From: a bacterium
Lineage (GTDB): Bacteria; Patescibacteriota; Minisyncoccia; Phycocordibacterales; UBA918
DNA: 64,000 bases
Direction of reading: 5' to 3'
Assembly (NCBI GenBank): GCA_043728975.1
Contig: JAYTMA010000167.1
Location: 4,939-68,938 of the forward strand
Below are positions 6,072 through 60,269 of the stretch, piece by piece. The translations under genes and the position numbers were made by a program. Numbering within the stretch: the stretch's first letter is position 1; every line of letters begins with the position of its first letter. The notes under the pieces were generated by a model. That model saw only the letters and a list, made by a program, of their open reading frames with translations, was not told the DNA's origin and did not search any database.

Positions 6072-6345
6072 TGTCCAGGAAGCTCTTGAAAAGCTTACTC
6101 CAGTTATAAACGGACGGGGAGTAGATGTTGCGGACCCATACGGAAGTTATAAAGCTAATAGAGTGATTGATTGCAGCTTGCCCAAGGAACTAGAAGCTTT
6201 TCTCTACGGATGGCTTGATAAAAACATGGGCAATCAGCTTGTTGTTAACTACATGTGCGATAGGGAATTTACAGACGAACAAAAAAAGAAATGGGCCGAG
6301 CTGGTAGAGCTATACTATTCGCCCTTAATGGAAGCACTAGGTTAG
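6055..6345 (+). CDS. hypothetical protein (96 aa)
   Basis: ORF overlapping the upstream gene end by 17 nt. Confidence 0.45.
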   Translation: MNKPLNVQEALEKLTPVINGRGVDVADPYGSYKANRVIDCSLPKELEAFLYGWLDKNMGNQLVVNYMCDREFTDEQKKKWAELVELYYSPLMEALG

Positions 6346-32138: not shown

Positions 32139-33266
32139 ATGAGCTTTAAATTCAACATCAAAAAGCATGGCGAAGTTTATTATGTACGAATGCGATCTTA
32201 TGCTGAGGCTGATAAATTAGCTCTTGGTAAGCCAGATGCGGAATATGTCGAAAGAATGCTGCCTAAAAAAGAATGGGCCATTCATGGGTTTGACGAGGAC
32301 ATGTCTATTGACCAGGCTAGAAAACATGCCAAAAGTTTAAACTCTCAGACAAAGCTTAAAGACGGCAAAGAAAATCGAGCCAAGATTACTCATGCGAAAG
32401 CCTTAGAGCATAATGACTTGGTTAAGTGTGCTTACTTACCGGAACATATAGTTACAGAGTTTGAGAAGAAACTCGAGAACGACTCTTATTCTGAAGATTT
32501 CAGGACATCAAAAGTTTACTACCACTGGCGAACAGCGATGAGAAAAATTGCAGAGCTGGGAATTGCCCCCGATCAATGGGCAGAGAATAATCGACTAGTG
32601 CTTAAAAAACTTGAAGGTTTAGCGCCTTCAACAATTACAAGAGTTATTCATAATATGAATGCTTATGGAGTGTTCTATTCTAAGCGCATGGGCAAGTTCT
32701 TTGAAAAGGTAGCTAAGCCTAAAGGTAATGAGATTGGTAGAATCAGTGACAAGTACTTAGATAGAACTGGCGGCAACACTAAAGAGGCCACTGACATAAC
32801 GCTTAAGCTTATGACAAAGCTAGCCAACTCTGATGAGCTTACTCAAGAAGAAAAAGACTGGTGCGTAGTATGCTTGGGATTTGGACTTAGGCCTAGCGAA
32901 GTGAAGATGATTAACAACCGCGATGTAAAAACTCTCATCATTGGCAAAAACTCAGTTAAGATTTTCCAAGCTAAGTTAGTGTCACTTCCTCGACCTAAAA
33001 GATTTAAAGAAGTGGCAATCACACACCCGTTTCAAAAAGCTGCTTACACAATAATTAAGTCAGATGTTAATTTGTCTGCTCCATCTGTGTATAAGCTCAA
33101 AAAGATATTGGGCGAAGGATACAAGCAGTACTCTTTCAGAAAGGGCTATGTTGAGATTATGATAAACTTAGGTGAGCCAATTGAGCGAATTTCATTAGAC
33201 TTGGGCCACAGCTCGATTGAGAGAACTTGGAAGAGTTATAGGAAAAGAATCACGCAAGGGAGTTAA
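32139..33266 (+). CDS. int: tyrosine integrase (375 aa)
   Basis: CLGFGLRPSEV (box I Arg) and C-terminal LGHSSIERTWKSYRKR (HxxR...Y). Confidence 0.85.
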   Translation: MSFKFNIKKHGEVYYVRMRSYAEADKLALGKPDAEYVERMLPKKEWAIHGFDEDMSIDQARKHAKSLNSQTKLKDGKENRAKITHAKALEHNDLVKCAYLPEHIVTEFEKKLENDSYSEDFRTSKVYYHWRTAMRKIAELGIAPDQWAENNRLVLKKLEGLAPSTITRVIHNMNAYGVFYSKRMGKFFEKVAKPKGNEIGRISDKYLDRTGGNTKEATDITLKLMTKLANSDELTQEEKDWCVVCLGFGLRPSEVKMINNRDVKTLIIGKNSVKIFQAKLVSLPRPKRFKEVAITHPFQKAAYTIIKSDVNLSAPSVYKLKKILGEGYKQYSFRKGYVEIMINLGEPIERISLDLGHSSIERTWKSYRKRITQGS

Positions 33267-33268
33267 TA

Positions 33269-33430
33269 GTGGATATTGTAAATATTTCTGTAGAACTGGG
33301 CCAATTAAAAGCTCGCATCGAGCTTATGAAAGCAGCTCTTGAACAATTGCTCCAGCATGAAGATCCCAAAGTGCGTAAGATTGCAAAAGCAGCTTTGTTT
33401 CAAGCGGGATTTAGCGAAGACGTTACTTAA
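33269..33430 (+). CDS. small helical protein (53 aa, GTG start), possible recombination directionality factor
   Basis: Translated by hand: VDIVNISVELGQLKARIELMKAALEQLLQHEDPKVRKIAKAALFQAGFSEDVT. Lies directly after the integrase. Confidence 0.2.
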   Translation: MDIVNISVELGQLKARIELMKAALEQLLQHEDPKVRKIAKAALFQAGFSEDVT

Positions 33431-33504
33431 GAGCCTTGTAGAGGGGGGAGTTGTAAACTGTCCAGCAGCCATTGGCTTTGTGAACGTGAATGTATTGGCC
33501 CAGT

Positions 33505-34455
33505 TCATTTCAGCTTCCCGAAAATAAATATACGCTCACGATTCTGGGCAAGTCCGAAGTGCTTTGAGTTTACAAGTTCGAAGTCTACTTCATATCCAAG
33601 CTGGGACAGGCCTTTAAGAATCTCAACTATGGTTTTACCTCCATCATGATTCAACAGGCCCTTTACGTTCTCAGCGAGGAAGTACTTCGGCTTATGCTTC
33701 TGGAGAATATCGAAGCAGTGGTAAATCATTTGACCCCGGCCCTTCTCGTCTTCGAACCCCTGTCTAAGTCCAGCAATACTAAAAGACTGGCACGGGAATC
33801 CGAAAGTCAGGAGATCGAAATCTGGGACGTCAGTACGTTCAATGAACTTAGTTACGTCATTAAAGTTGGGAGTGTTCGGATGGTTGAAGCGAATTACATC
33901 TGAAGCGTACTTATCAAATTCGCATGTCCCAGTTAACTTGAAACGCTCTGGAAGATTTAGCTCAGTTCCGAGTATTCCCGAGAACAAAGACTGAACTCTA
34001 ACCTGTTCATCGCCAGGAATTAGTGACGTAAGTATTGTCGCGGCTACAGGAGAGCTGACTCCGTTACCACATTGTTTGTATCTTTGGGTGTTAGACATGT
34101 TGTAGATTGTCCCATCTTCTTTTCTTCCATACGCTGTATGATTGTCTGGGTAGCCTTGAAGTCTTTCACATTCTACTGGAGTGAGCTTACGAATTCTAAT
34201 CGTACCAGCTTCATCTAGAACCATGCGCTGACCATTACCTGGGGCGGGATTACCTACATTAGTGGTGAGAGTACAGGCAATTTCATCAGTCTTAACATTG
34301 TCATTATAAGCATCGTACACCGCTACGAAATTTTGAGAACTCATGTTTGCTCCTCCATCACCTGTACTTATTGTATTTGCTTCTCCATCCACTTTTCCCC
34401 TAACATCAATATGATTCTCACGAGTGCTTTTAGAATATGCTACTGTAGTTTTCAA
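33505..34455 (-). CDS. DNA (cytosine-5) methyltransferase, circularly permuted catalytic core (316 aa: TRD/motifs IX-X, then I, IV, VI, VIII)
   Basis: ECERLQGYPD, GNGVSSPVA (motif X), LFSGILG (I), FPCQSFS (IV), ENVKGL (VI), QNRERIFIFG (VIII). The protein ends 3 aa after motif VIII. TTG start. The frame stays open upstream to 34506. Confidence 0.8.
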   Translation of the reverse strand: MKTTVAYSKSTRENHIDVRGKVDGEANTISTGDGGANMSSQNFVAVYDAYNDNVKTDEIACTLTTNVGNPAPGNGQRMVLDEAGTIRIRKLTPVECERLQGYPDNHTAYGRKEDGTIYNMSNTQRYKQCGNGVSSPVAATILTSLIPGDEQVRVQSLFSGILGTELNLPERFKLTGTCEFDKYASDVIRFNHPNTPNFNDVTKFIERTDVPDFDLLTFGFPCQSFSIAGLRQGFEDEKGRGQMIYHCFDILQKHKPKYFLAENVKGLLNHDGGKTIVEILKGLSQLGYEVDFELVNSKHFGLAQNRERIFIFGKLK

Positions 34456-34457
34456 TT

Positions 34458-34466
34458 CCCCCCCCC
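34458..34466 (-). repeat. homopolymer tract (G9 on the coding strand)
   Basis: Nine C on the plus strand, at the junction between methyltransferase reading frames. Confidence 0.8.
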
Positions 34467-34668
34467 TTCTAATACGAGCTGACGTCGAGACTTCAGAGTA
34501 GTGTTAGTGCCTTTGGCGTAATTACTATCTAAACAATAGCTAACGTCTTTTCCTAATTTCATTAATCATCCTCATTAATATGGGCGTTCTTATCTGCTTC
34601 AGTTGTTAAAGCAGGAGAAATCCCATTGCTGTCGTAGACTCTGCCTTTTTGCTTGTAGAGACTTTGTC

Positions 34669-34678
34669 GCCCCCCCCC
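34669..34678 (-). repeat. homopolymer tract (about G10 on the coding strand)
   Basis: About 10 C on the plus strand, 30 nt downstream of the stop of the 81-aa methyltransferase fragment. Confidence 0.75.
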
Positions 34679-34704
34679 ATACGCTGGTTCGCCGTAGAGG
34701 AGTT

Positions 34705-34950
34705 TTATATCTTTCCCAGCTTCATGCTCACTAGGCGTTCTTGAAAATTCGCTTCTTTAACAATCCTCTCAACAACCTCATTTCTAAGGTAATACTTCTC
34801 ATCAACCTCTTCTTCGAGGATGTCCTTTAGCTTAGGAGTAGGAAGTTCGTTCGTAAGGGGGATGTTGAATTGGCCTAGTTGTATTTCTGGTAGTTCTTTC
34901 TTGATCAGGGCTTTAAGTCGAGTAATAGCTTTTGATTGTGTTATGCTCAT
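34705..34950 (-). CDS. methyltransferase N-terminal fragment (81 aa, the post-motif-VIII segment of a canonical C5-MTase)
   Basis: FNIPLTNELPTPKLKDILEEEVDEKYYL matches the F-x-F-P ... L-x-DIL ... VDEKYYLS segment that normally follows motif VIII. Ends at TAA before the G10 tract. Confidence 0.5.
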   Translation of the reverse strand: MSITQSKAITRLKALIKKELPEIQLGQFNIPLTNELPTPKLKDILEEEVDEKYYLRNEVVERIVKEANFQERLVSMKLGKI

Positions 34951-35008: not shown

Positions 35009-35479
35009 CTAGTAACTTCCCACAATGCGTAATTGCTTCCAGCAGATTGTAGTGTGACCGTGAACTGTATAACCAGCTTCTCCGTATTCTCTCCAGCAAG
35101 TACTTCGATAGTCGTACTGAATGCTTATGTAATCTTTGATCTCTTTCATGAGCTGTGCTCTAGTTGTCCCAATCTTATACTTAACCTCTTTAACCTGGGA
35201 CAGACCAGAGGGAATTGAAACAGTAACTGCACAATAGTCTTCTGTCCGCCACTCTACTTCTAAAACTGGAACAGCGTTTTCGTACTCCCGGCTTATGAGA
35301 GCTTCAGCTTTGCGGAAGGCTTGATGGCAGGATTGCCCAAGCTGTCGGTAGAGAATGCGAGAGCCATTGTACACTCGAACGGATTGTTCGCCAGACAAGA
35401 GCCCTTGCACCCAAGATGGGCCAGGAGAAGCACAGGATGAAATGAACAGTAATAATGGTAGTATGGTTAATCTTTTCAT
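35009..35479 (-). CDS. lipoprotein (156 aa)
   Basis: Signal plus lipobox LLLFISSCAS. Confidence 0.55.
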   Translation of the reverse strand: MKRLTILPLLLFISSCASPGPSWVQGLLSGEQSVRVYNGSRILYRQLGQSCHQAFRKAEALISREYENAVPVLEVEWRTEDYCAVTVSIPSGLSQVKEVKYKIGTTRAQLMKEIKDYISIQYDYRSTCWREYGEAGYTVHGHTTICWKQLRIVGSY

Positions 35480-35550: not shown

Positions 35551-36189
35551 ATGAAATTCTTGTTACTTTTGGTTCTTGTAAGCTGTGCTTCTGTTCCTAG
35601 ACAGGATAAGAGCTTGGTTAAAGTAGGAATTACCTCAATAAAGGTTGTTGATAGTACCTCTAGAAATGTCTTTGTAAGCACTGGCATGAACGAGGTAGAG
35701 AACGATAACCAGCTCTTCAAAATCTACGCCAGCGTCGTTTATGAAGCTCTCAAGGGGCGAGGATATGTCCCAGTTAGTTCTAAGGATAAAGCTAATTTAA
35801 TCGTATATTTAAGCTATGAGGTTTCAGATCCTGAAAACTACACACATACTCAGAGTGTTCCAGTTTACGGCGGTAATTCCACCTCAACAGTTACAAACCA
35901 ATTTGGGCAACAGATCGGAACGATAAGAACTCAAAACTATGGGCCAACAGGTTATAGGGAAGTTAAAAGCTCTTATTCAATATACTCAAAGAAAATCACT
36001 CTCCACGCCTATGAAGGTGAGCAAATGGTGTGGGCAACTAGCTTAGCTCATCATAGCAGCTCAAGCACTGACTTGTTCAAGCTCTTCCCTTACATGGTGC
36101 AAGCTGGAGCGCCTTATTTTGATAAGCACTTAGACGATGCTCCAATTGTAGAGGTTGTTAAAATGAGAGCCCCAGCTTCAGTTCCATAG
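35551..36189 (+). CDS. lipoprotein (212 aa)
   Basis: Signal plus lipobox LVLVSCAS. gaagagagtaaaaaaggag RBS. Divergent from the upstream lipoprotein. Confidence 0.6.
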   Translation: MKFLLLLVLVSCASVPRQDKSLVKVGITSIKVVDSTSRNVFVSTGMNEVENDNQLFKIYASVVYEALKGRGYVPVSSKDKANLIVYLSYEVSDPENYTHTQSVPVYGGNSTSTVTNQFGQQIGTIRTQNYGPTGYREVKSSYSIYSKKITLHAYEGEQMVWATSLAHHSSSSTDLFKLFPYMVQAGAPYFDKHLDDAPIVEVVKMRAPASVP

Positions 36190-38102: not shown

Positions 38103-39155
38103 TCAAATTTCATCATTAAAAAACTTTCTTACCAAAATATGATCCATTAGCAACTGATTACAATCCTTGTCGTGCATCTCTGTTGTCATGCTCAACAGCT
38201 CTGCATGTTGCACTATTGTCTCGGCCAATCGCATTTTTTTAAATTTATCAACCTCGGCATCAGTAAGCCCCTTACACGTAGAAATAATTTTAAGAGTCAG
38301 AAAGTCCTCCTGTAGACCTTTTAGACCTCCAAAAATTATATCGTTATTATCAGGATCAAATCCGTAGCCTAAAATGATGAGCCTCTCTGCATTCTGCAAA
38401 ATTGATCTCAGGACTTTATACTCATCCTTATGCTTCCTATCGATAAAATTAATTCCCTCAGAAGCTAAAATTAAATCATCAAATCCAGGAACTGTATCAT
38501 CTCGAAGAGCATTTAAAACGGCATTTACCCGTTCTAGATTTCCGTACACATGAAAGATAGGAAGATCATTTCTGACAATATGTTTTGCCCTGCTCGCTAA
38601 GTCTCGGTCAATTTCTTGATGTGAATAGTAATTAGTAAAACAATCTTCGAGATGAAGGTCGTAATTAAAGGTTATAAAGCAATCCGGTTCTTCTAAGTAT
38701 CCTGAATAATCAAGCCCAATTCGTTTATTTAAATAGTTTAAGATCCATGGCTTACAATCCACGGAAGGTTCAAAAATTCCGTCGACAGTATTCCCTGCCG
38801 TTCTGGCGCAATTAATTAAAACATAACTGACCAAGAATTTTGCGATATTTAGATAGCGTGGATTTTTTGCGACAAAAGAGTCGATTGACTGGGCACCTGA
38901 TTTCTTTAGCTTCTCAACGAACGATTTTAATTCAATTGAAAACTCACCTAGATGATGTTGCAAATCATCGTCTTTGCATTCATCAATATTTTTCCGGAGC
39001 TGATTGAAGATGTTATCAGTACCATTTTCTAAATTGATCAGATTAATTTTAAGCTGACTACCCGTCGGATAGCCATACGCAAGACTTGAGCCAGCTCCGA
39101 GGAGATAAACATCTTTAAACTTATGATTCTTCCATTTTTCAAGTTTCTCAATCAT
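38103..39155 (-). CDS. SIR2_2-family (Thoeris ThsA / DSR-like) putative NAD+-hydrolase protein (350 aa)
   Basis: N-terminal VYLLGAGSSLAYGYPTGSQL (GAGxS...G.P). CFITFNYDLHLED (TTNYD motif). LPIFHVYGNL (catalytic His). LIILGYGFDPDNNDI (GYSf-D). Lone minus-strand gene with aggaac RBS. Confidence 0.7.
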   Translation of the reverse strand: MIEKLEKWKNHKFKDVYLLGAGSSLAYGYPTGSQLKINLINLENGTDNIFNQLRKNIDECKDDDLQHHLGEFSIELKSFVEKLKKSGAQSIDSFVAKNPRYLNIAKFLVSYVLINCARTAGNTVDGIFEPSVDCKPWILNYLNKRIGLDYSGYLEEPDCFITFNYDLHLEDCFTNYYSHQEIDRDLASRAKHIVRNDLPIFHVYGNLERVNAVLNALRDDTVPGFDDLILASEGINFIDRKHKDEYKVLRSILQNAERLIILGYGFDPDNNDIIFGGLKGLQEDFLTLKIISTCKGLTDAEVDKFKKMRLAETIVQHAELLSMTTEMHDKDCNQLLMDHILVRKFFNDEI

Positions 39156-44964: not shown

Positions 44965-45517
44965 GTACGGCGCTCCTGCAACTCGCAAAGACTTTATTGA
45001 AACAGACTATGTTAATGGCGTAGAGAATGATCGGGGCGAGCAAGTGATTCGCCCCCTCAATCAATACGAAGTTGAATGGTTGGCCCAGTTTTACTCTGAA
45101 ACAGAGCACGAGAGCTTCGTTAAGACTGAAGAAATGGAATTGGTTGAGGATTTATATAACGTGATTTGCCGCGAACTAAGACAGGCAAAAAAAACTGGAG
45201 CAACTACGGAAACTATTCTCGAGCTTAAAGAGAAATCAGAAGCTCAATACAAAAAACTAGTACAGCTTAGAACTGAAACGAATACTTTCTACCCTGAAGA
45301 TTCAGATAGAAGAGAAATCTATAAGAAGGGGAATCATAGAAGAGACGACATCTTTAACGTTGCCAAAGCTTCGGGCAAGTTAGTTTCTTACGATGTTACA
45401 GAGTTTGATAAGTTTACAACTAAGGCCGAGAAGTCTGTGAATGCTGAACATTTAGTGCTTGATTATCTTACGAAGAAGCCAGTGAAGAGAAAAATGGTAC
45501 GGAAAAAGAAGGGCTAG
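44909..45517 (+). CDS. basic hypothetical protein (202 aa)
   Basis: K/R-rich N-terminus. Last plus-strand gene. Its stop overlaps the convergent minus-strand gene. Confidence 0.45.
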   Translation: MTNNIGPKKRRKKYNPLNKYGAPATRKDFIETDYVNGVENDRGEQVIRPLNQYEVEWLAQFYSETEHESFVKTEEMELVEDLYNVICRELRQAKKTGATTETILELKEKSEAQYKKLVQLRTETNTFYPEDSDRREIYKKGNHRRDDIFNVAKASGKLVSYDVTEFDKFTTKAEKSVNAEHLVLDYLTKKPVKRKMVRKKKG

Positions 45518-59657: not shown

Positions 59658-60269
59658 CTATGATATAATTGTAGAGAATGTAGCTATACCAGAGGTAGTT
59701 GCTTTTATGTACACAGCAAACCTTTGAGCAACTAGCACTCCTGACAGATTTATAGAGCTTGAACCTGCTAGAGTATTGACATAAATATCTGGACTAGTAG
59801 GAATAGAAAAAGAAACAGGAGGTGCAGCATAGGTAACATCAAAAGTAAGTGTAGTAGTTTCTCCAATGAATACTTCCGACCCTGGTTTGGTTGAGGCATA
59901 AACTCTGTATGCAACAGCATCAATTATTGCTACCCAAGAAACAGCTATTTTACTTGTAGAACTTGAACCAGTTTTTTTTGATTGGACGGAAGTTGGAGCA
60001 GACTCCACGCCATTTACATCTACAGTGGTAACACGTACATATATTACTGTATCTCTAGGAATAGTCCCTCCACTAGACACAGCAGAAAGGGAGATACTAG
60101 CTAATCTCGTAAGACTATTTATCTCTTTATCAAGGTATATTTCCCATTCAATAACTTCGCTTGATGACAATATTAAGCTTGCTAATGTGCCGGAAAATGC
60201 TATGACTGAATTTAATACTTCGTTATATCCTGAAATAATAGGTACTTTAACACTTAAACTGTTAGCCAT
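59658..60269 (-). CDS. FN3/Ig-like domain structural protein (203 aa)
   Basis: KIAVSWVAIIDAVAYRVYAST is an FN3-like strand pattern. Confidence 0.45.
   Translation of the reverse strand: MANSLSVKVPIISGYNEVLNSVIAFSGTLASLILSSSEVIEWEIYLDKEINSLTRLASISLSAVSSGGTIPRDTVIYVRVTTVDVNGVESAPTSVQSKKTGSSSTSKIAVSWVAIIDAVAYRVYASTKPGSEVFIGETTTLTFDVTYAAPPVSFSIPTSPDIYVNTLAGSSSINLSGVLVAQRFAVYIKATTSGIATFSTIIS

What the first reader, a model, noticed from the sequence alone, without database searches (positions are those of the whole stretch)
33505..34950. Circularly permuted C5 cytosine methyltransferase interrupted at two long G-homopolymer tracts (phase-variable or decaying)
On the minus strand the 316-aa ORF contains motifs in the order (TRD) - X (ECERLQGYPD / GNGVSSPVA) - I (LFSGILG) - IV (FPCQSFS) - VI (ENVKGL) - VIII (QNRERIFIFG). 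It stops 3 aa after motif VIII. The upstream 81-aa ORF (34705-34950) is exactly the segment that normally follows motif VIII (FNIPLT...LKDILEEEVDEKYYL). The gene is therefore permuted in the manner of M.BssHII and split M.AquI-type enzymes. Between the two ORFs lie a G10 tract (34669-34678) and a G9 tract (34458-34466). In that stretch a second RVYDSNG-x-SPALTT TRD-like motif is readable only by switching frames at least twice. Homopolymer tracts of this length are classic slipped-strand phase-variation switches for methyltransferases. Alternatively they are homopolymer sequencing errors or early pseudogenisation. Two TRD-like motifs might indicate a multispecific phage MTase.
Basis: partly seen in the sequence, partly recalled or inferred. 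Interest (0 to 1): 0.75.

Follow-up and report, generated by a model that had tools for sequence, protein, structure and literature searches.

The report
Permuted phage cytosine methyltransferase with poly-G switches
An uncultivated phage carries an intact DNA cytosine methyltransferase whose domains are in rearranged order, and runs of nine Gs sit between its DNA-recognition modules, where they probably decide which modules are joined to the enzyme and so which sequences it protects.

Summary
The permutation is real. On the minus strand the order is TRD modules, IX, X, I, IV, VI, VIII, and the ORF stops 3 aa after motif VIII. This is the known "Type H" topology of M.BssHII-like enzymes. It is shared by dozens of metagenomic phage homologues that all end at the same point.

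Both homopolymers are G9, not G10 and G9. They are the only G/C runs longer than 6 nt in 64 kb.

The gene is not simply broken at two tracts:
- The 316-aa catalytic ORF is intact and has its own TTG start behind a Shine-Dalgarno-like G-run.
- The 81-aa ORF is a conserved, separately encoded small protein. It corresponds to the segment after motif VIII.
- Tract 1 lies in frame inside a TRD-like cassette (A).
- Only tract 2 breaks a frame. It uncouples a 36-aa cassette (B) from the core.

In the eight closest relatives the same B|core junction carries G9, G10 or (GA)7-10, in frame in some and out of frame in others. Poly-G also recurs in other TRD cassettes and in a neighbouring Dam-like gene.

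The tracts most likely toggle which TRD cassettes are fused to the core. This is comparative inference. All assemblies of this phage are G9/G9, and no length variant is on record. Random sequencing error is essentially excluded, and long-term decay is unlikely.

The parts
34705..34950 (-). ORF81: an 81-aa small protein homologous to the segment that follows motif VIII in canonical C5-MTases (FNIPLT...LKDILEEEVDEKYYL...). It is a conserved stand-alone gene in relatives.
   Evidence: BLASTP against P0118 residues 171-231 gives E=2e-9. Stand-alone homologues occur in L010, L011, L013, L021, L027, L029, L031 and L035. In an exhaustive phmmer search, 14 of 20 hits are proteins of 57-159 aa. pN is 0.14-0.23 against pS 0.75-0.92.
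34711..34717 (-). G_GGA_AAG, a canonical -1 slippery heptamer in the ORF81 frame, two codons before its TAA stop. It leads into the cassette A frame, which has no start codon.
   Evidence: It is the only in-frame X_XXY_YYZ heptamer in ORF81. The background rate of efficient heptamers is 6e-4 per codon. The downstream hairpin (-13.4 kcal/mol) is not significant (z=-1.16). The heptamer is not conserved in relatives.
34565..34717 (-). Cassette A: a TRD-like module (GKDIKLLYGEPAYGGGRQSLYKQKGRVYDSNGISPALTTEADKNAHINEDD, stop TAA at 34562-34564). It is in the -1 frame relative to ORF81 and has no ATG, GTG or TTG start.
   Evidence: Three-frame translation. It forms the N-terminus of the MTase in P0006 and P0014. 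It is a stand-alone 60-aa ORF with an ATG in L028, with 76% aa identity, pN 0.138 and pS 0.586.
34670..34678 (-). Poly-G tract 1 (G9), in frame inside cassette A, where it encodes GGG.
   Evidence: A G9 sits at the identical site in L028. L035 has A+G9, out of frame. L011 has (AG)6 at this site.
34452..34562 (-). ORF36, cassette B: MKLGKDVSYCLDSNYAKGTNTTLKSRRQLVLEGGGN. It has an ATG start that overlaps the cassette A stop (TAATG) and a GAGGA Shine-Dalgarno-like motif upstream. It forms the N-terminus of the MTase in most close relatives.
   Evidence: Amino-acid identity is 88-91%, with pN 0.07-0.11 against pS 0.65-0.98.
34458..34466 (-). Poly-G tract 2 (G9) at the cassette B | core junction. 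G10 or G7 would fuse B to the core as a protein of 352 or 351 aa. The tract also provides a Shine-Dalgarno-like motif for the core's TTG start.
   Evidence: Simulation of tract lengths. Junction alignment with G10 (L012, in frame), G9 (L028, in frame) and (GA)7-10 in L025, L026, L027, L029 and L035. Shine-Dalgarno usage in this phage.
33505..34455 (-). Catalytic core ORF of 316 aa with a TTG start that overlaps the ORF36 stop (TTGA). Feature coordinates: TRD module C 34318-34449; TRD module H 34204-34317; motif IX 34144-34200; X 34030-34080; I 33961-33990; IV (PCQ) 33769-33801; VI (ENV) 33655-33678; VIII (QNRER) 33517-33546.
   Evidence: Pfam. HhaI alignment. Family alignment with all invariant residues present. 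Coordinates. AlphaFold2 model and Foldseek match to M.HhaI. pN 0.12-0.29 against saturated pS.

Best explanation
The locus encodes a phage orphan DNA cytosine-5 methyltransferase system. It has the naturally circularly permuted Type H topology (TRD array, IX, X, I...VIII) and descends from SPbeta/phi3T-type multispecific phage enzymes.

Shown:
- The 316-aa core is intact and conserved.
- The core can be translated on its own from a TTG that follows a G-rich Shine-Dalgarno-like sequence.
- ORF81 is a conserved, separately encoded copy of the post-motif-VIII segment.
- Two further TRD-like cassettes, A and B, lie between ORF81 and the core, each in a different reading frame.
- Tract 2 sits exactly at a junction that carries a purine simple-sequence repeat in all close relatives, and the repeat length sets whether cassette B is in frame with the core.

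Inferred:
- Because permutation puts the TRD array at the N-terminus, a frameshift between cassettes removes or adds distal TRDs without destroying the enzyme.
- The poly-G and poly-GA repeats therefore act as slippage-prone switches that vary the TRD complement, and so the set of methylated sequences. They do not switch the enzyme on or off.
- In this phage population the state is core only: B is OFF, and A is not fused to the core.
- ORF81 probably docks in trans onto the C-terminal end of the core, where it would be contiguous in a canonical enzyme.
For: Topology and family:
- Pfam, HhaI and Foldseek all support the permuted order.
- Dozens of homologues share the order and the stop after motif VIII.

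Descent:
- ORF81, then A, B, C, IX and X are colinear with canonical multi-TRD Bacillus enzymes.

Repeat at the B|core junction:
- Window: G9, out of frame.
- L012: G10, in frame.
- L028: G9, in frame.
- L026: (GA)7, in frame.
- L027: (AG)7, in frame.
- L035: (GA)10, in frame.
- L025: (GA)9, out of frame.
- L029: (GA)8, where another cassette is fused by reading the B DNA in an alternate open frame.
- A start codon (ATG, GTG or TTG) follows the repeat in every case.

Poly-G at other sites in MTase modules:
- Cassette A in the window and L028 (G9) and in L035 (shifted).
- Cassette D in L025 (G10), L029 (G9) and L031-34 (G9).
- The Dam-like gene in L025 and L029 (G8).

Enrichment:
- There are 12 simple-sequence repeats in the 11.3 kb of N-terminal variable regions, against 10 in 124 kb of flanks (Poisson P=3e-10).
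- The expected number of G/C runs of 9 or more in the window is 0.07, and two are observed.
- GGG is the rarest Gly codon.

Selection and fast change:
- Cassettes A and B are as conserved as the core and contain no internal stops.
- Phages that are 99.85% identical differ by a single internal indel, an A7/A6 change at the 5' end of this gene.

Translation:
- The phage uses Shine-Dalgarno motifs at -13 to -8, which suits G9-AA-TTG.
Against: - No length variation is seen within this phage. All 8 contigs examined are G9/G9.
- The predicted protein products of G7, G8, G10, G11 and G12 variants are absent from a collection of 15 billion proteins.
- The evidence for switching therefore comes from diverged relatives, where it could reflect ordinary mutation and loss.
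- Two of the frame changes in relatives are indels next to a tract rather than changes in tract length (L029 Dam-like gene and L035 cassette A).
- Cassette A in the window has no start codon and is not joined to B or to the core, so tract 1 has no obvious switch function here.
- The loci are phylogenetically related, so the enrichment P-value is overstated.
- Neither the methylation specificity nor the activity of any family member is known.
- AlphaFold2 models the TRD part (residues 1-83) with low confidence.
Confidence: 0.55

Rival explanations
1. Relic cassettes. The core enzyme, with or without ORF81, is functional. Cassettes A and B are recently inactivated leftovers of a longer ancestral gene like P0006 or P0009. 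The purine repeats are only linker-coding sequences (GGG, ERER) that happen to be mutational hotspots, and their frame states have no adaptive role.
For: - Cassette A lacks a start codon.
- Relative to L010 and L011 the window has an 8-nt deletion at the ORF81|A junction and 8 extra nt at the A|B junction.
- The state is fixed at G9/G9 in all assemblies, and no variant is on record.
- Long-form relatives (P0009, P0013, P0016 and L016) have no simple-sequence repeats.
- Some OFF states come from indels that are not slippage.
Against: - A and B have no internal stops and are as conserved as the core, although synonymous sites are saturated.
- All frame changes fall at cassette boundaries.
- G9 is kept at the same site in lineages whose cores are only 62% identical, even though GGG is the rarest Gly codon.
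- Every G run of 8 or more seen in the window and in L025, L028, L029, L031 and L035 lies in an MTase module.
Confidence: 0.28
2. Recoding rather than DNA-level switching. A -1 ribosomal frameshift at G_GGA_AAG makes an ORF81-A fusion. Transcriptional or ribosomal slippage on G9 makes some B-core fusion constitutively. The pieces are then expressed in fixed ratios from one DNA state.
For: - The canonical heptamer is in the correct frame, 2 codons before the ORF81 stop, and leads into a conserved -1 ORF that has no start.
- All three frame changes are in the -1 direction.
- The stable G9/G9 genotype fits this reading.
- A hairpin begins 8 nt downstream of the heptamer and uses tract 1 as its 3' arm.
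Against: - The hairpin is not better than shuffled sequence (z=-1.16; 33 of 200 shuffles fold as well).
- The heptamer is not conserved. L010 and L011 use an ATG in the +1 frame, and L028 and L035 use their own ATG.
- G-runs are poor ribosomal slippery sites (general knowledge).
- The A|B junction has no slippery site.
Confidence: 0.12
3. The whole locus is a dead methyltransferase pseudogene, or the frame breaks are sequencing or assembly errors in homopolymers.
For: Several short ORFs stand in place of the single gene seen in some relatives. Homopolymers are error-prone in some sequencing technologies.
Against: - Eight contigs from ENA (two pipelines) and two Logan runs are identical over 1611 bp.
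- The core ORF is complete, keeps all catalytic motifs and family-invariant residues, and has pN far below pS.
- Two of the three frame changes are not at homopolymers.
Confidence: 0.04

Closest known systems
Natural circularly permuted (Type H) C5-MTases: M.BssHII, M.Alw26I, M2.Eco31I, M.Esp3I, M2.BsaI and about 22 others in REBASE (PMC5944983)
   Same: Motifs IX-X precede motifs I-VIII on one polypeptide. [quoted passage not shown] The protein ends right after motif VIII.
   Different: - The known examples are bacterial and mostly belong to restriction-modification systems. This one is an orphan enzyme in an uncultivated phage clade.
- It carries a multi-cassette TRD array.
- The post-VIII segment is encoded as a separate small gene.
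- Simple-sequence repeats sit between cassettes.
- Sequence relationship to M.BssHII itself was not tested.
Multispecific Bacillus phage C5-MTases (M.SPRI, M.Phi3TI, M.H2I, M.Rho11sI; Wilke et al. 1988 and Lange et al. 1991, as cited in PMC8936443)
   Same: - Several TRD modules stand in tandem in the variable region.
- The window's ORF81, A, B and C modules align colinearly with canonical multi-TRD Bacillus proteins P0105 and P0118.
- The enzyme is phage-borne, with no partner endonuclease seen nearby.
   Different: - Those enzymes have the canonical I-X order in one uninterrupted ORF. Here the order is permuted and the array is broken into separate reading frames and ORFs.
- Multispecificity has not been demonstrated here.
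[quoted passage not shown]
   Same: One fold is assembled from more than one polypeptide, and the cut lies in or beside the variable region. This is the precedent for ORF81, and possibly for free cassettes, acting in trans.
   Different: - M.AquI separates I-VIII from IX-X. Here both are on one chain, and the separate piece is only the roughly 80-aa post-VIII segment.
- Assembly was not tested.
SSR-driven phase-variable methyltransferases of bacteria (Type III mod phasevarions; the Type IIG enzyme of C. jejuni, PMC4889913) and hypermutable poly-G tracts in Campylobacter phage receptor-binding genes (Sorensen et al. 2021, cited in PMC12823448)
   Same: Poly-G or dinucleotide repeats lie inside coding sequence, and their length sets the reading frame. 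The frame states differ among relatives. The repeats are strongly enriched over the genomic background.
   Different: - Here the repeat does not switch the enzyme on or off. It would add or remove N-terminal specificity cassettes.
- The carrier is a phage methyltransferase, not a bacterial one or a phage tail gene.
- Switching within a population has not been shown.

Membership tests
C5 DNA cytosine methyltransferase (Pfam PF00145) | Profile match above the curated cut-off | tested here: met
   209 bits against a cut-off of 22, E=1.5e-61.
C5 DNA cytosine methyltransferase (Pfam PF00145) | Catalytic and cofactor motifs: I (FxGxG), IV (PCQ Cys), VI (ENV), VIII (QxRxR), IX and X (GNxV) | tested here: met
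   The motifs read LFSGILG (the second Gly is variable across the family), GFPCQSFS, ENVKGL, QNRERIFIFG, RKLTPVECERLQGYPD and GNGVSSPV.
C5 DNA cytosine methyltransferase (Pfam PF00145) | Methyltransferase fold | tested here: met
   The AlphaFold2 model has pLDDT of about 80-96 over residues 90-316. Foldseek matches M.HhaI over 166 columns at rmsd 2.7 A, E=2.7e-13. The TRD part has low confidence.
C5 DNA cytosine methyltransferase (Pfam PF00145) | m5C-forming activity | not testable with these tools
   This needs expression followed by bisulfite, EM-seq or nanopore methylome analysis.
Type H circularly permuted C5-MTases (M.BssHII-like) | Motif X precedes motif I on one polypeptide | tested here: met
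   Query residues 87-134 align to HhaI 270-307, and residues 153-311 align to HhaI 13-168.
Type H circularly permuted C5-MTases (M.BssHII-like) | [quoted passage not shown] | tested here: met
   The ORF starts at TRD module C and stops 3 aa after QNRERIFIFG. All 20 aligned homologues end at the same point. The definition is taken from PMC5944983.
Type H circularly permuted C5-MTases (M.BssHII-like) | Direct sequence kinship with M.BssHII, or association with a restriction endonuclease | not tested
   No M.BssHII sequence was available. No endonuclease-like Pfam hit occurs among the neighbouring genes, but this was not examined further.
Multispecific phage C5-MTases (SPR/phi3T type) | Several TRD modules in tandem in the variable region | tested here: met
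   Modules A, B, C and H each carry a TRD-like motif. The order is colinear with the multi-TRD proteins P0118 and P0105.
Multispecific phage C5-MTases (SPR/phi3T type) | Canonical motif order I-X in one ORF | tested here: not met
   The order is permuted, and the array is split over four reading-frame segments.
Multispecific phage C5-MTases (SPR/phi3T type) | More than one methylation specificity | not testable with these tools
   This needs methylome analysis.
M.AquI-type split C5-MTase | Motifs I-VIII and IX-X on two different polypeptides | tested here: not met
   Both blocks lie in the single 316-aa ORF.
SSR contingency (phase-variable) locus | A repeat of slippage-prone length inside coding sequence, enriched over background | tested here: met
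   Two G9 tracts are present against 0.07 expected. Enrichment across family loci is 13-fold.
SSR contingency (phase-variable) locus | Repeat-length differences among related genomes that change the reading frame | tested here: met
   The B|core junction carries G9, G10 or (GA)7-10, with both in-frame and out-of-frame states.
SSR contingency (phase-variable) locus | Length heterogeneity within one population or clone | tested here: not met
   All 8 contigs are G9/G9, and no variant protein is in the collection. This covers consensus sequences only.
Programmed -1 ribosomal frameshift | An in-frame X_XXY_YYZ heptamer before the 0-frame stop, and a -1 ORF without a start codon | tested here: met
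   G_GGA_AAG lies at 34711-34717, and cassette A has no start codon.
Programmed -1 ribosomal frameshift | A downstream stimulatory structure, and conservation of the signal in relatives | tested here: not met
   The hairpin has z=-1.16. Relatives use separate ATG starts.

The most novel reading that the evidence does not exclude
A modular C5 methyltransferase with exchangeable specificity parts. The permuted catalytic core would work with a separately encoded adaptor (the ORF81 post-VIII segment). It would also work with small free-standing TRD proteins, which are fused in cis or supplied in trans. These are cassettes A and D, about 50-70 aa long, each with a poly-G tract near its 5' end and an acidic tail. 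Expression or fusion of each cassette would be set by poly-G or poly-GA slippage, or in this phage by a -1 frameshift from ORF81 into A. That would give the phage a stochastic repertoire of methylation specificities. In logic it resembles phase-variable HsdS subunits of Type I systems, which is not known for C5-MTases or for phages.
Probability: 0.15. Interest if true: 0.85.

Novelty: new variant of a known kind. Interest (0 to 1): 0.62.

Why it matters
Phage methyltransferases protect phage DNA from host restriction enzymes, but the methylation exposes the DNA to methylation-dependent nucleases. A stochastic way to vary which sites are methylated would therefore be a bet-hedging device in the phage-host arms race.

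Circular permutation places the recognition modules at the N-terminus. There, frame changes can add or drop modules without killing the enzyme. This offers a functional rationale for a topology so far known mainly as a curiosity of a few bacterial enzymes.

The clade also offers natural examples of a C5-MTase fold split into separately encoded pieces. These are relevant to engineered split or permuted methyltransferases used for targeted methylation.

All of this is testable with a few constructs and methylome sequencing.

Tried and rejected
Searches that found little or nothing:
- A blastn search of the locus against 50,697 GenBank phage records found no match.
- A tblastn search of the core against the same records found only canonical-order enzymes below 60% identity, each hit in two pieces. 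No cultured phage carries the permuted form.
- A scan of 185,579 species-representative genomes found no relative, so the host is unknown.
- A profile of ORF81-like proteins against PDB sequences found nothing significant. Homology to the post-VIII segment was shown by pairwise BLASTP instead.
- A word-indexed search with a stand-alone cassette A returned only 2 proteins.
- The paper on M.phiBssHII (PMC1171429) is not held.

Tests with negative or unhelpful results:
- An exact-sequence look-up of the protein products expected from other tract lengths found none.
- The hairpin downstream of the slippery heptamer looked attractive but is not better than shuffled sequence.
- dN/dS could not be computed properly because synonymous sites are saturated. 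Only pN against pS is reported.

Ideas considered and rejected:
- That the permuted order results from prophage integration next to the integrase-like gene, or from an assembly junction. Dozens of diverged homologues share the same in-frame X-to-I junction and the same stop after motif VIII.
- That poly-G merely encodes a Gly3 linker. GGG is the rarest Gly codon, and other Gly-Gly-Gly tripeptides avoid it.
Full report
**What is in the sequence**

I read the minus strand from 34950 down to 33505. It holds four consecutive coding pieces in three reading frames.
- ORF81 (34705-34950, frame 0) ends ...ERLVSMKLGKI*.
- Cassette A (34565-34717, frame -1 relative to ORF81) reads GKDIKLLYGEPAYGGGRQSLYKQKGRVYDSNGISPALTTEADKNAHINEDD*. 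It has no ATG, GTG or TTG start.
- ORF36, or cassette B (34452-34562, a further -1), reads MKLGKDVSYCLDSNYAKGTNTTLKSRRQLVLEGGGN*. Its ATG overlaps the stop of A (TAATG).
- ORF316 (33505-34455, a further -1) has a TTG start that overlaps the stop of ORF36 (TTGA).

Both homopolymers are G9, at 34670-34678 and 34458-34466. They are the only G/C runs longer than 6 nt in the 64-kb window: 29 runs of length 5, 14 of length 6, none of length 7-8, and two of length 9. The expected number of runs of 9 or more is 0.07.

**The permutation is real and of a known type**

- Pfam PF00145 matches ORF316 at E=1.5e-61, with residues 153-315 on profile positions 2-162.
- Against M.HhaI, residues 153-311 align to HhaI 13-168 (motifs I-VIII) and residues 87-134 align to HhaI 270-307 (motifs IX-X).
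- An AlphaFold2 model (pLDDT about 80-96 over residues 90-316) matches M.HhaI over 166 columns at 2.7 A.
- The ORF stops three residues after QNRERIFIFG.
- ORF81 aligns to residues 171-231 of a canonical-order enzyme, P0118, directly after its motif VIII (E=2e-9).
- The conceptually joined ORF81-A-B-C-H-IX-X sequence is colinear with P0118 residues 169-546.
- P0118 and the Bacillus protein P0105 are canonical multi-TRD enzymes that contain recognisable counterparts of the window's modules.
[quoted passage not shown] These are M.BssHII, M.Alw26I, M2.Eco31IC, M.Esp3I, M2.BsaI and 22 more in REBASE. [quoted passage not shown]

The M.AquI comparison does not, because motifs IX-X and I-VIII are on one chain here.

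**It is a conserved family, not a truncated gene**

A database search returned many proteins of 280-460 aa that cover the permuted arrangement. All end within a few residues of motif VIII (...FIFGRLK*). Three long forms of 612-666 aa cover the whole conceptual protein.

The family is confined to phage-like metagenomic contigs.
- None was found in 185,579 representative bacterial and archaeal genomes.
- No cultured phage carries the permuted form.
- The window itself is phage DNA. It encodes DNA polymerase A (48% aa identity to Flavobacterium phage immuto), ribonucleotide reductase and virion proteins.
- The source contig is about 91 kb.

**ORF81 is a gene in its own right**

Homologues of about 77-107 aa occur as separate ORFs next to or near the methyltransferase in L010, L011, L013-19, L021, L024, L027, L029, L031 and L035. 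In L010 and L011 the end of this ORF overlaps the ATG of the methyltransferase gene. In L027 another gene lies between them. In the long forms the segment is fused in frame.

An exhaustive phmmer search with ORF81 gave 20 hits. Fourteen are small proteins of 57-159 aa. Six are long proteins matched internally. Non-synonymous divergence is low (pN 0.14-0.23) while synonymous sites are near saturation (pS 0.75-0.92).

The stop of ORF81 is therefore not a lesion. The system looks like a split enzyme in which the post-VIII segment is supplied as a separate polypeptide. Assembly is inferred. [quoted passage not shown]

**What the G tracts do to the reading frames**

*Tract 1 does not break a frame.* In the cassette A frame it encodes GGG between sequences that are homologous on both sides to P0006, P0014 and L028.

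*Tract 2 does break a frame.* In P0002, P0003, P0004, P0005, P0008 and P0032, cassette B is the in-frame N-terminus of the enzyme. Simulation shows that G10 or G7 would give a 352- or 351-aa B-core fusion in the window.

*The core does not depend on this fusion.*
- Its TTG sits 2 nt after the G-run.
- The phage's genes use an AAGGA-like Shine-Dalgarno motif at -13 to -8 (40 of 59 ORFs).
- The equivalent position in relatives is an ATG or GTG.
- P0010 and P0021 are called from that start.

**Comparative evidence that the repeats are special**

The B|core junction was aligned across the closest relatives.

| Locus | Repeat at the junction | Start codon that follows | State of cassette B |
|---|---|---|---|
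| Window | G9 | TTG | out of frame |
| L012 | G10 | ATG | in frame |
| L028 | G9 | ATG | in frame |
| L026 | (GA)7 | ATG | in frame |
| L027 | (AG)7 | GTG | in frame |
| L035 | (GA)10 | ATG | in frame |
| L025 | (GA)9 | ATG | out of frame (core only) |
| L029 | (GA)8 | ATG | out of frame |

In L029 a different cassette (I) is fused to the core by reading the cassette-B DNA in an alternate, stop-free frame. B keeps its own ATG in the other frame.

Poly-G recurs elsewhere in these systems.
- Cassette A has a G9 at the identical site in L028, where A is a stand-alone 60-aa ORF with an ATG.
- Cassette A has A+G9 in L035, where the true start is out of frame with the TRD part.
- Cassette D has G10 in L025, G9 in L029, and G9 18 nt after the GTG start of the enzyme in L031-34.
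- A neighbouring Dam-like gene has a G8. It is intact in L025 and split in L029.

Over 16 loci, simple-sequence repeats number 12 in the 11.3 kb of N-terminal variable regions, against 10 in 124 kb of flanks (Poisson P=3e-10). The loci are related, so this P-value is generous.

GGG is the rarest glycine codon in the window (12.8%), and the four other Gly-Gly-Gly tripeptides avoid it. The homopolymers are therefore not a by-product of coding for glycine.

Two phage genomes that are 99.85% identical over 6 kb differ by one internal indel, an A7/A6 change at the 5' end of this gene. A third near-identical genome carries a 122-nt tandem duplication in the TRD region.

**Decay or function**

Cassettes A and B in the window have no internal stops and are as conserved as the core.
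- B: 88-91% aa identity, pN 0.07-0.11, pS 0.65-0.98.
- A against the stand-alone A of L028: 76% identity, pN 0.138, pS 0.586.
- Core against its nearest relatives: 78-86% identity.

All three frame changes fall at cassette boundaries, and all go in the same (-1) direction. Long-standing pseudogenisation is therefore unlikely. A recent loss cannot be excluded.

**Evidence against rapid switching in this phage**

Eight contigs from several ENA samples (two assembly pipelines) and two Logan runs are identical over 1611 bp, G9/G9 included. The exact products of G7, G8, G10, G11 and G12 variants are absent from the 15-billion-protein collection, while the G9 products occur on 6-8 contigs. This rules out random sequencing error. 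It also shows that the consensus state is stable, and it leaves read-level heterogeneity untested.

**A possible recoding signal**

The last codons of ORF81 contain G_GGA_AAG (34711-34717) in the correct phase for a -1 shift into cassette A, which has no start codon. The background frequency of such efficient heptamers in this phage's ORFs is 6e-4 per codon. A hairpin starts 8 nt downstream and uses tract 1 as its 3' arm (-13.4 kcal/mol), but it is not better than shuffled sequence (z=-1.16). The signal is also absent from relatives, which use ATG starts. I keep this as a minor rival or add-on.

**Interpretation**

The best-supported reading is an intact, Type H permuted, multi-TRD phage C5-MTase with these features:
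- a separately encoded post-VIII segment;
- purine simple-sequence repeats at and within TRD cassettes;
- repeat lengths that set which cassettes are joined to the core.

Permutation puts the TRD array at the N-terminus. A frameshift there trims or extends the array without removing motifs IX-X, as it would in a canonical enzyme. In this phage the state is core only.

The step from "repeat lengths differ among relatives" to "adaptive, reversible switching" is inferred. The specificity is unknown.

**Novelty**

Each ingredient is known:
- Type H permutation;
- multispecific phage MTases;
- split C5-MTases;
- SSR phase variation of bacterial methyltransferases;
- poly-G tracts in Campylobacter phage tail genes (Sorensen 2021, cited in PMC12823448).

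I did not find their combination described in the literature searched. That combination is a phage clade whose permuted C5-MTase has repeat-punctuated and partly free-standing TRD cassettes. I rate it a new variant of a known kind.

Noticed in passing
window + strand ORFs ending at 6345, 15903, 19422, 20617, 20832, 22652, 26804, 31368, 39477, 42606, 42815 and 43018: At least 12 small ORFs (62-104 aa) all end in the C-terminal peptide SPL[YMWF]xAL[KR]. Third codon positions vary, so the conservation is at the protein level. The same small genes flank the methyltransferase in relatives L012, L026, L027 and L035. Their function is unknown.
   Followed up: partly
window 33423-33509 (-): A 28-codon remnant (...VYNSPLYKALK*) of one of those small genes, without a start codon, lies directly after the methyltransferase stop. 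Relatives have full-length copies at this position.
   Followed up: partly
L025 2413-2889 and L029 2044-2504: A Dam-like (PF05869) adenine methyltransferase gene lies just upstream of the C5-MTase and carries a G8 tract (SWGGY). It is intact in L025. In L029 it is split into two ORFs by a 1-nt deletion 2 nt after the tract.
   Followed up: partly
L035 3821-4924; also P0017 (810 aa) and P0044: Some family members carry large in-frame insertions inside the methyltransferase. L035 has an HNH endonuclease-like segment within TRD module C, with a duplicated flank (GDGG.N.S..N[FY]VAE). P0017 has an insertion of about 300 aa before motif X. P0044 has Hint/intein Pfam domains.
   Followed up: no
L015 versus L018 (about 2660 in the alignment): Two phage genomes that are otherwise nearly identical (2 substitutions over about 6 kb) differ by a 122-nt tandem duplication, flanked by CACGGCGATGAA, inside the TRD region of the methyltransferase. 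The length is not a multiple of 3.
   Followed up: no
L022 (1573-nt contig): This is a canonical-order relative (motifs I-VIII followed by TRDs that include module C, TVAYSKSTR). Its KYYL post-VIII segment is readable only in another frame. This may be another case of frame hopping in the variable region, or a contig error.
   Followed up: no
window 38103-39155 (-): A 350-aa ORF with a weak SIR2_2 Pfam hit (from the gene table of the identical contig L001) sits among small phage genes. It could be a defence or counter-defence gene.
   Followed up: no
window 35009-35479 (-) and 35551-36189 (+): Two divergently oriented ORFs have lipoprotein-type signal sequences (LLFISSCAS, LVLVSCAS). The 212-aa ORF has a weak DUF4136 hit. 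They are conserved next to the methyltransferase region in relatives.
   Followed up: no
window 32139-33266 (+): A 375-aa ORF converges on the methyltransferase and has only a marginal tyrosine-recombinase hit (PF00589, E=0.077). Relatives have 420-483-aa integrase-like genes in the same position, so the phage clade may be temperate.
   Followed up: no
window 45187-45194 and 59972-59979: These are the only other homopolymers of 8 nt or more in the window: an A8 and a T8 on the + strand. They were not examined.
   Followed up: no
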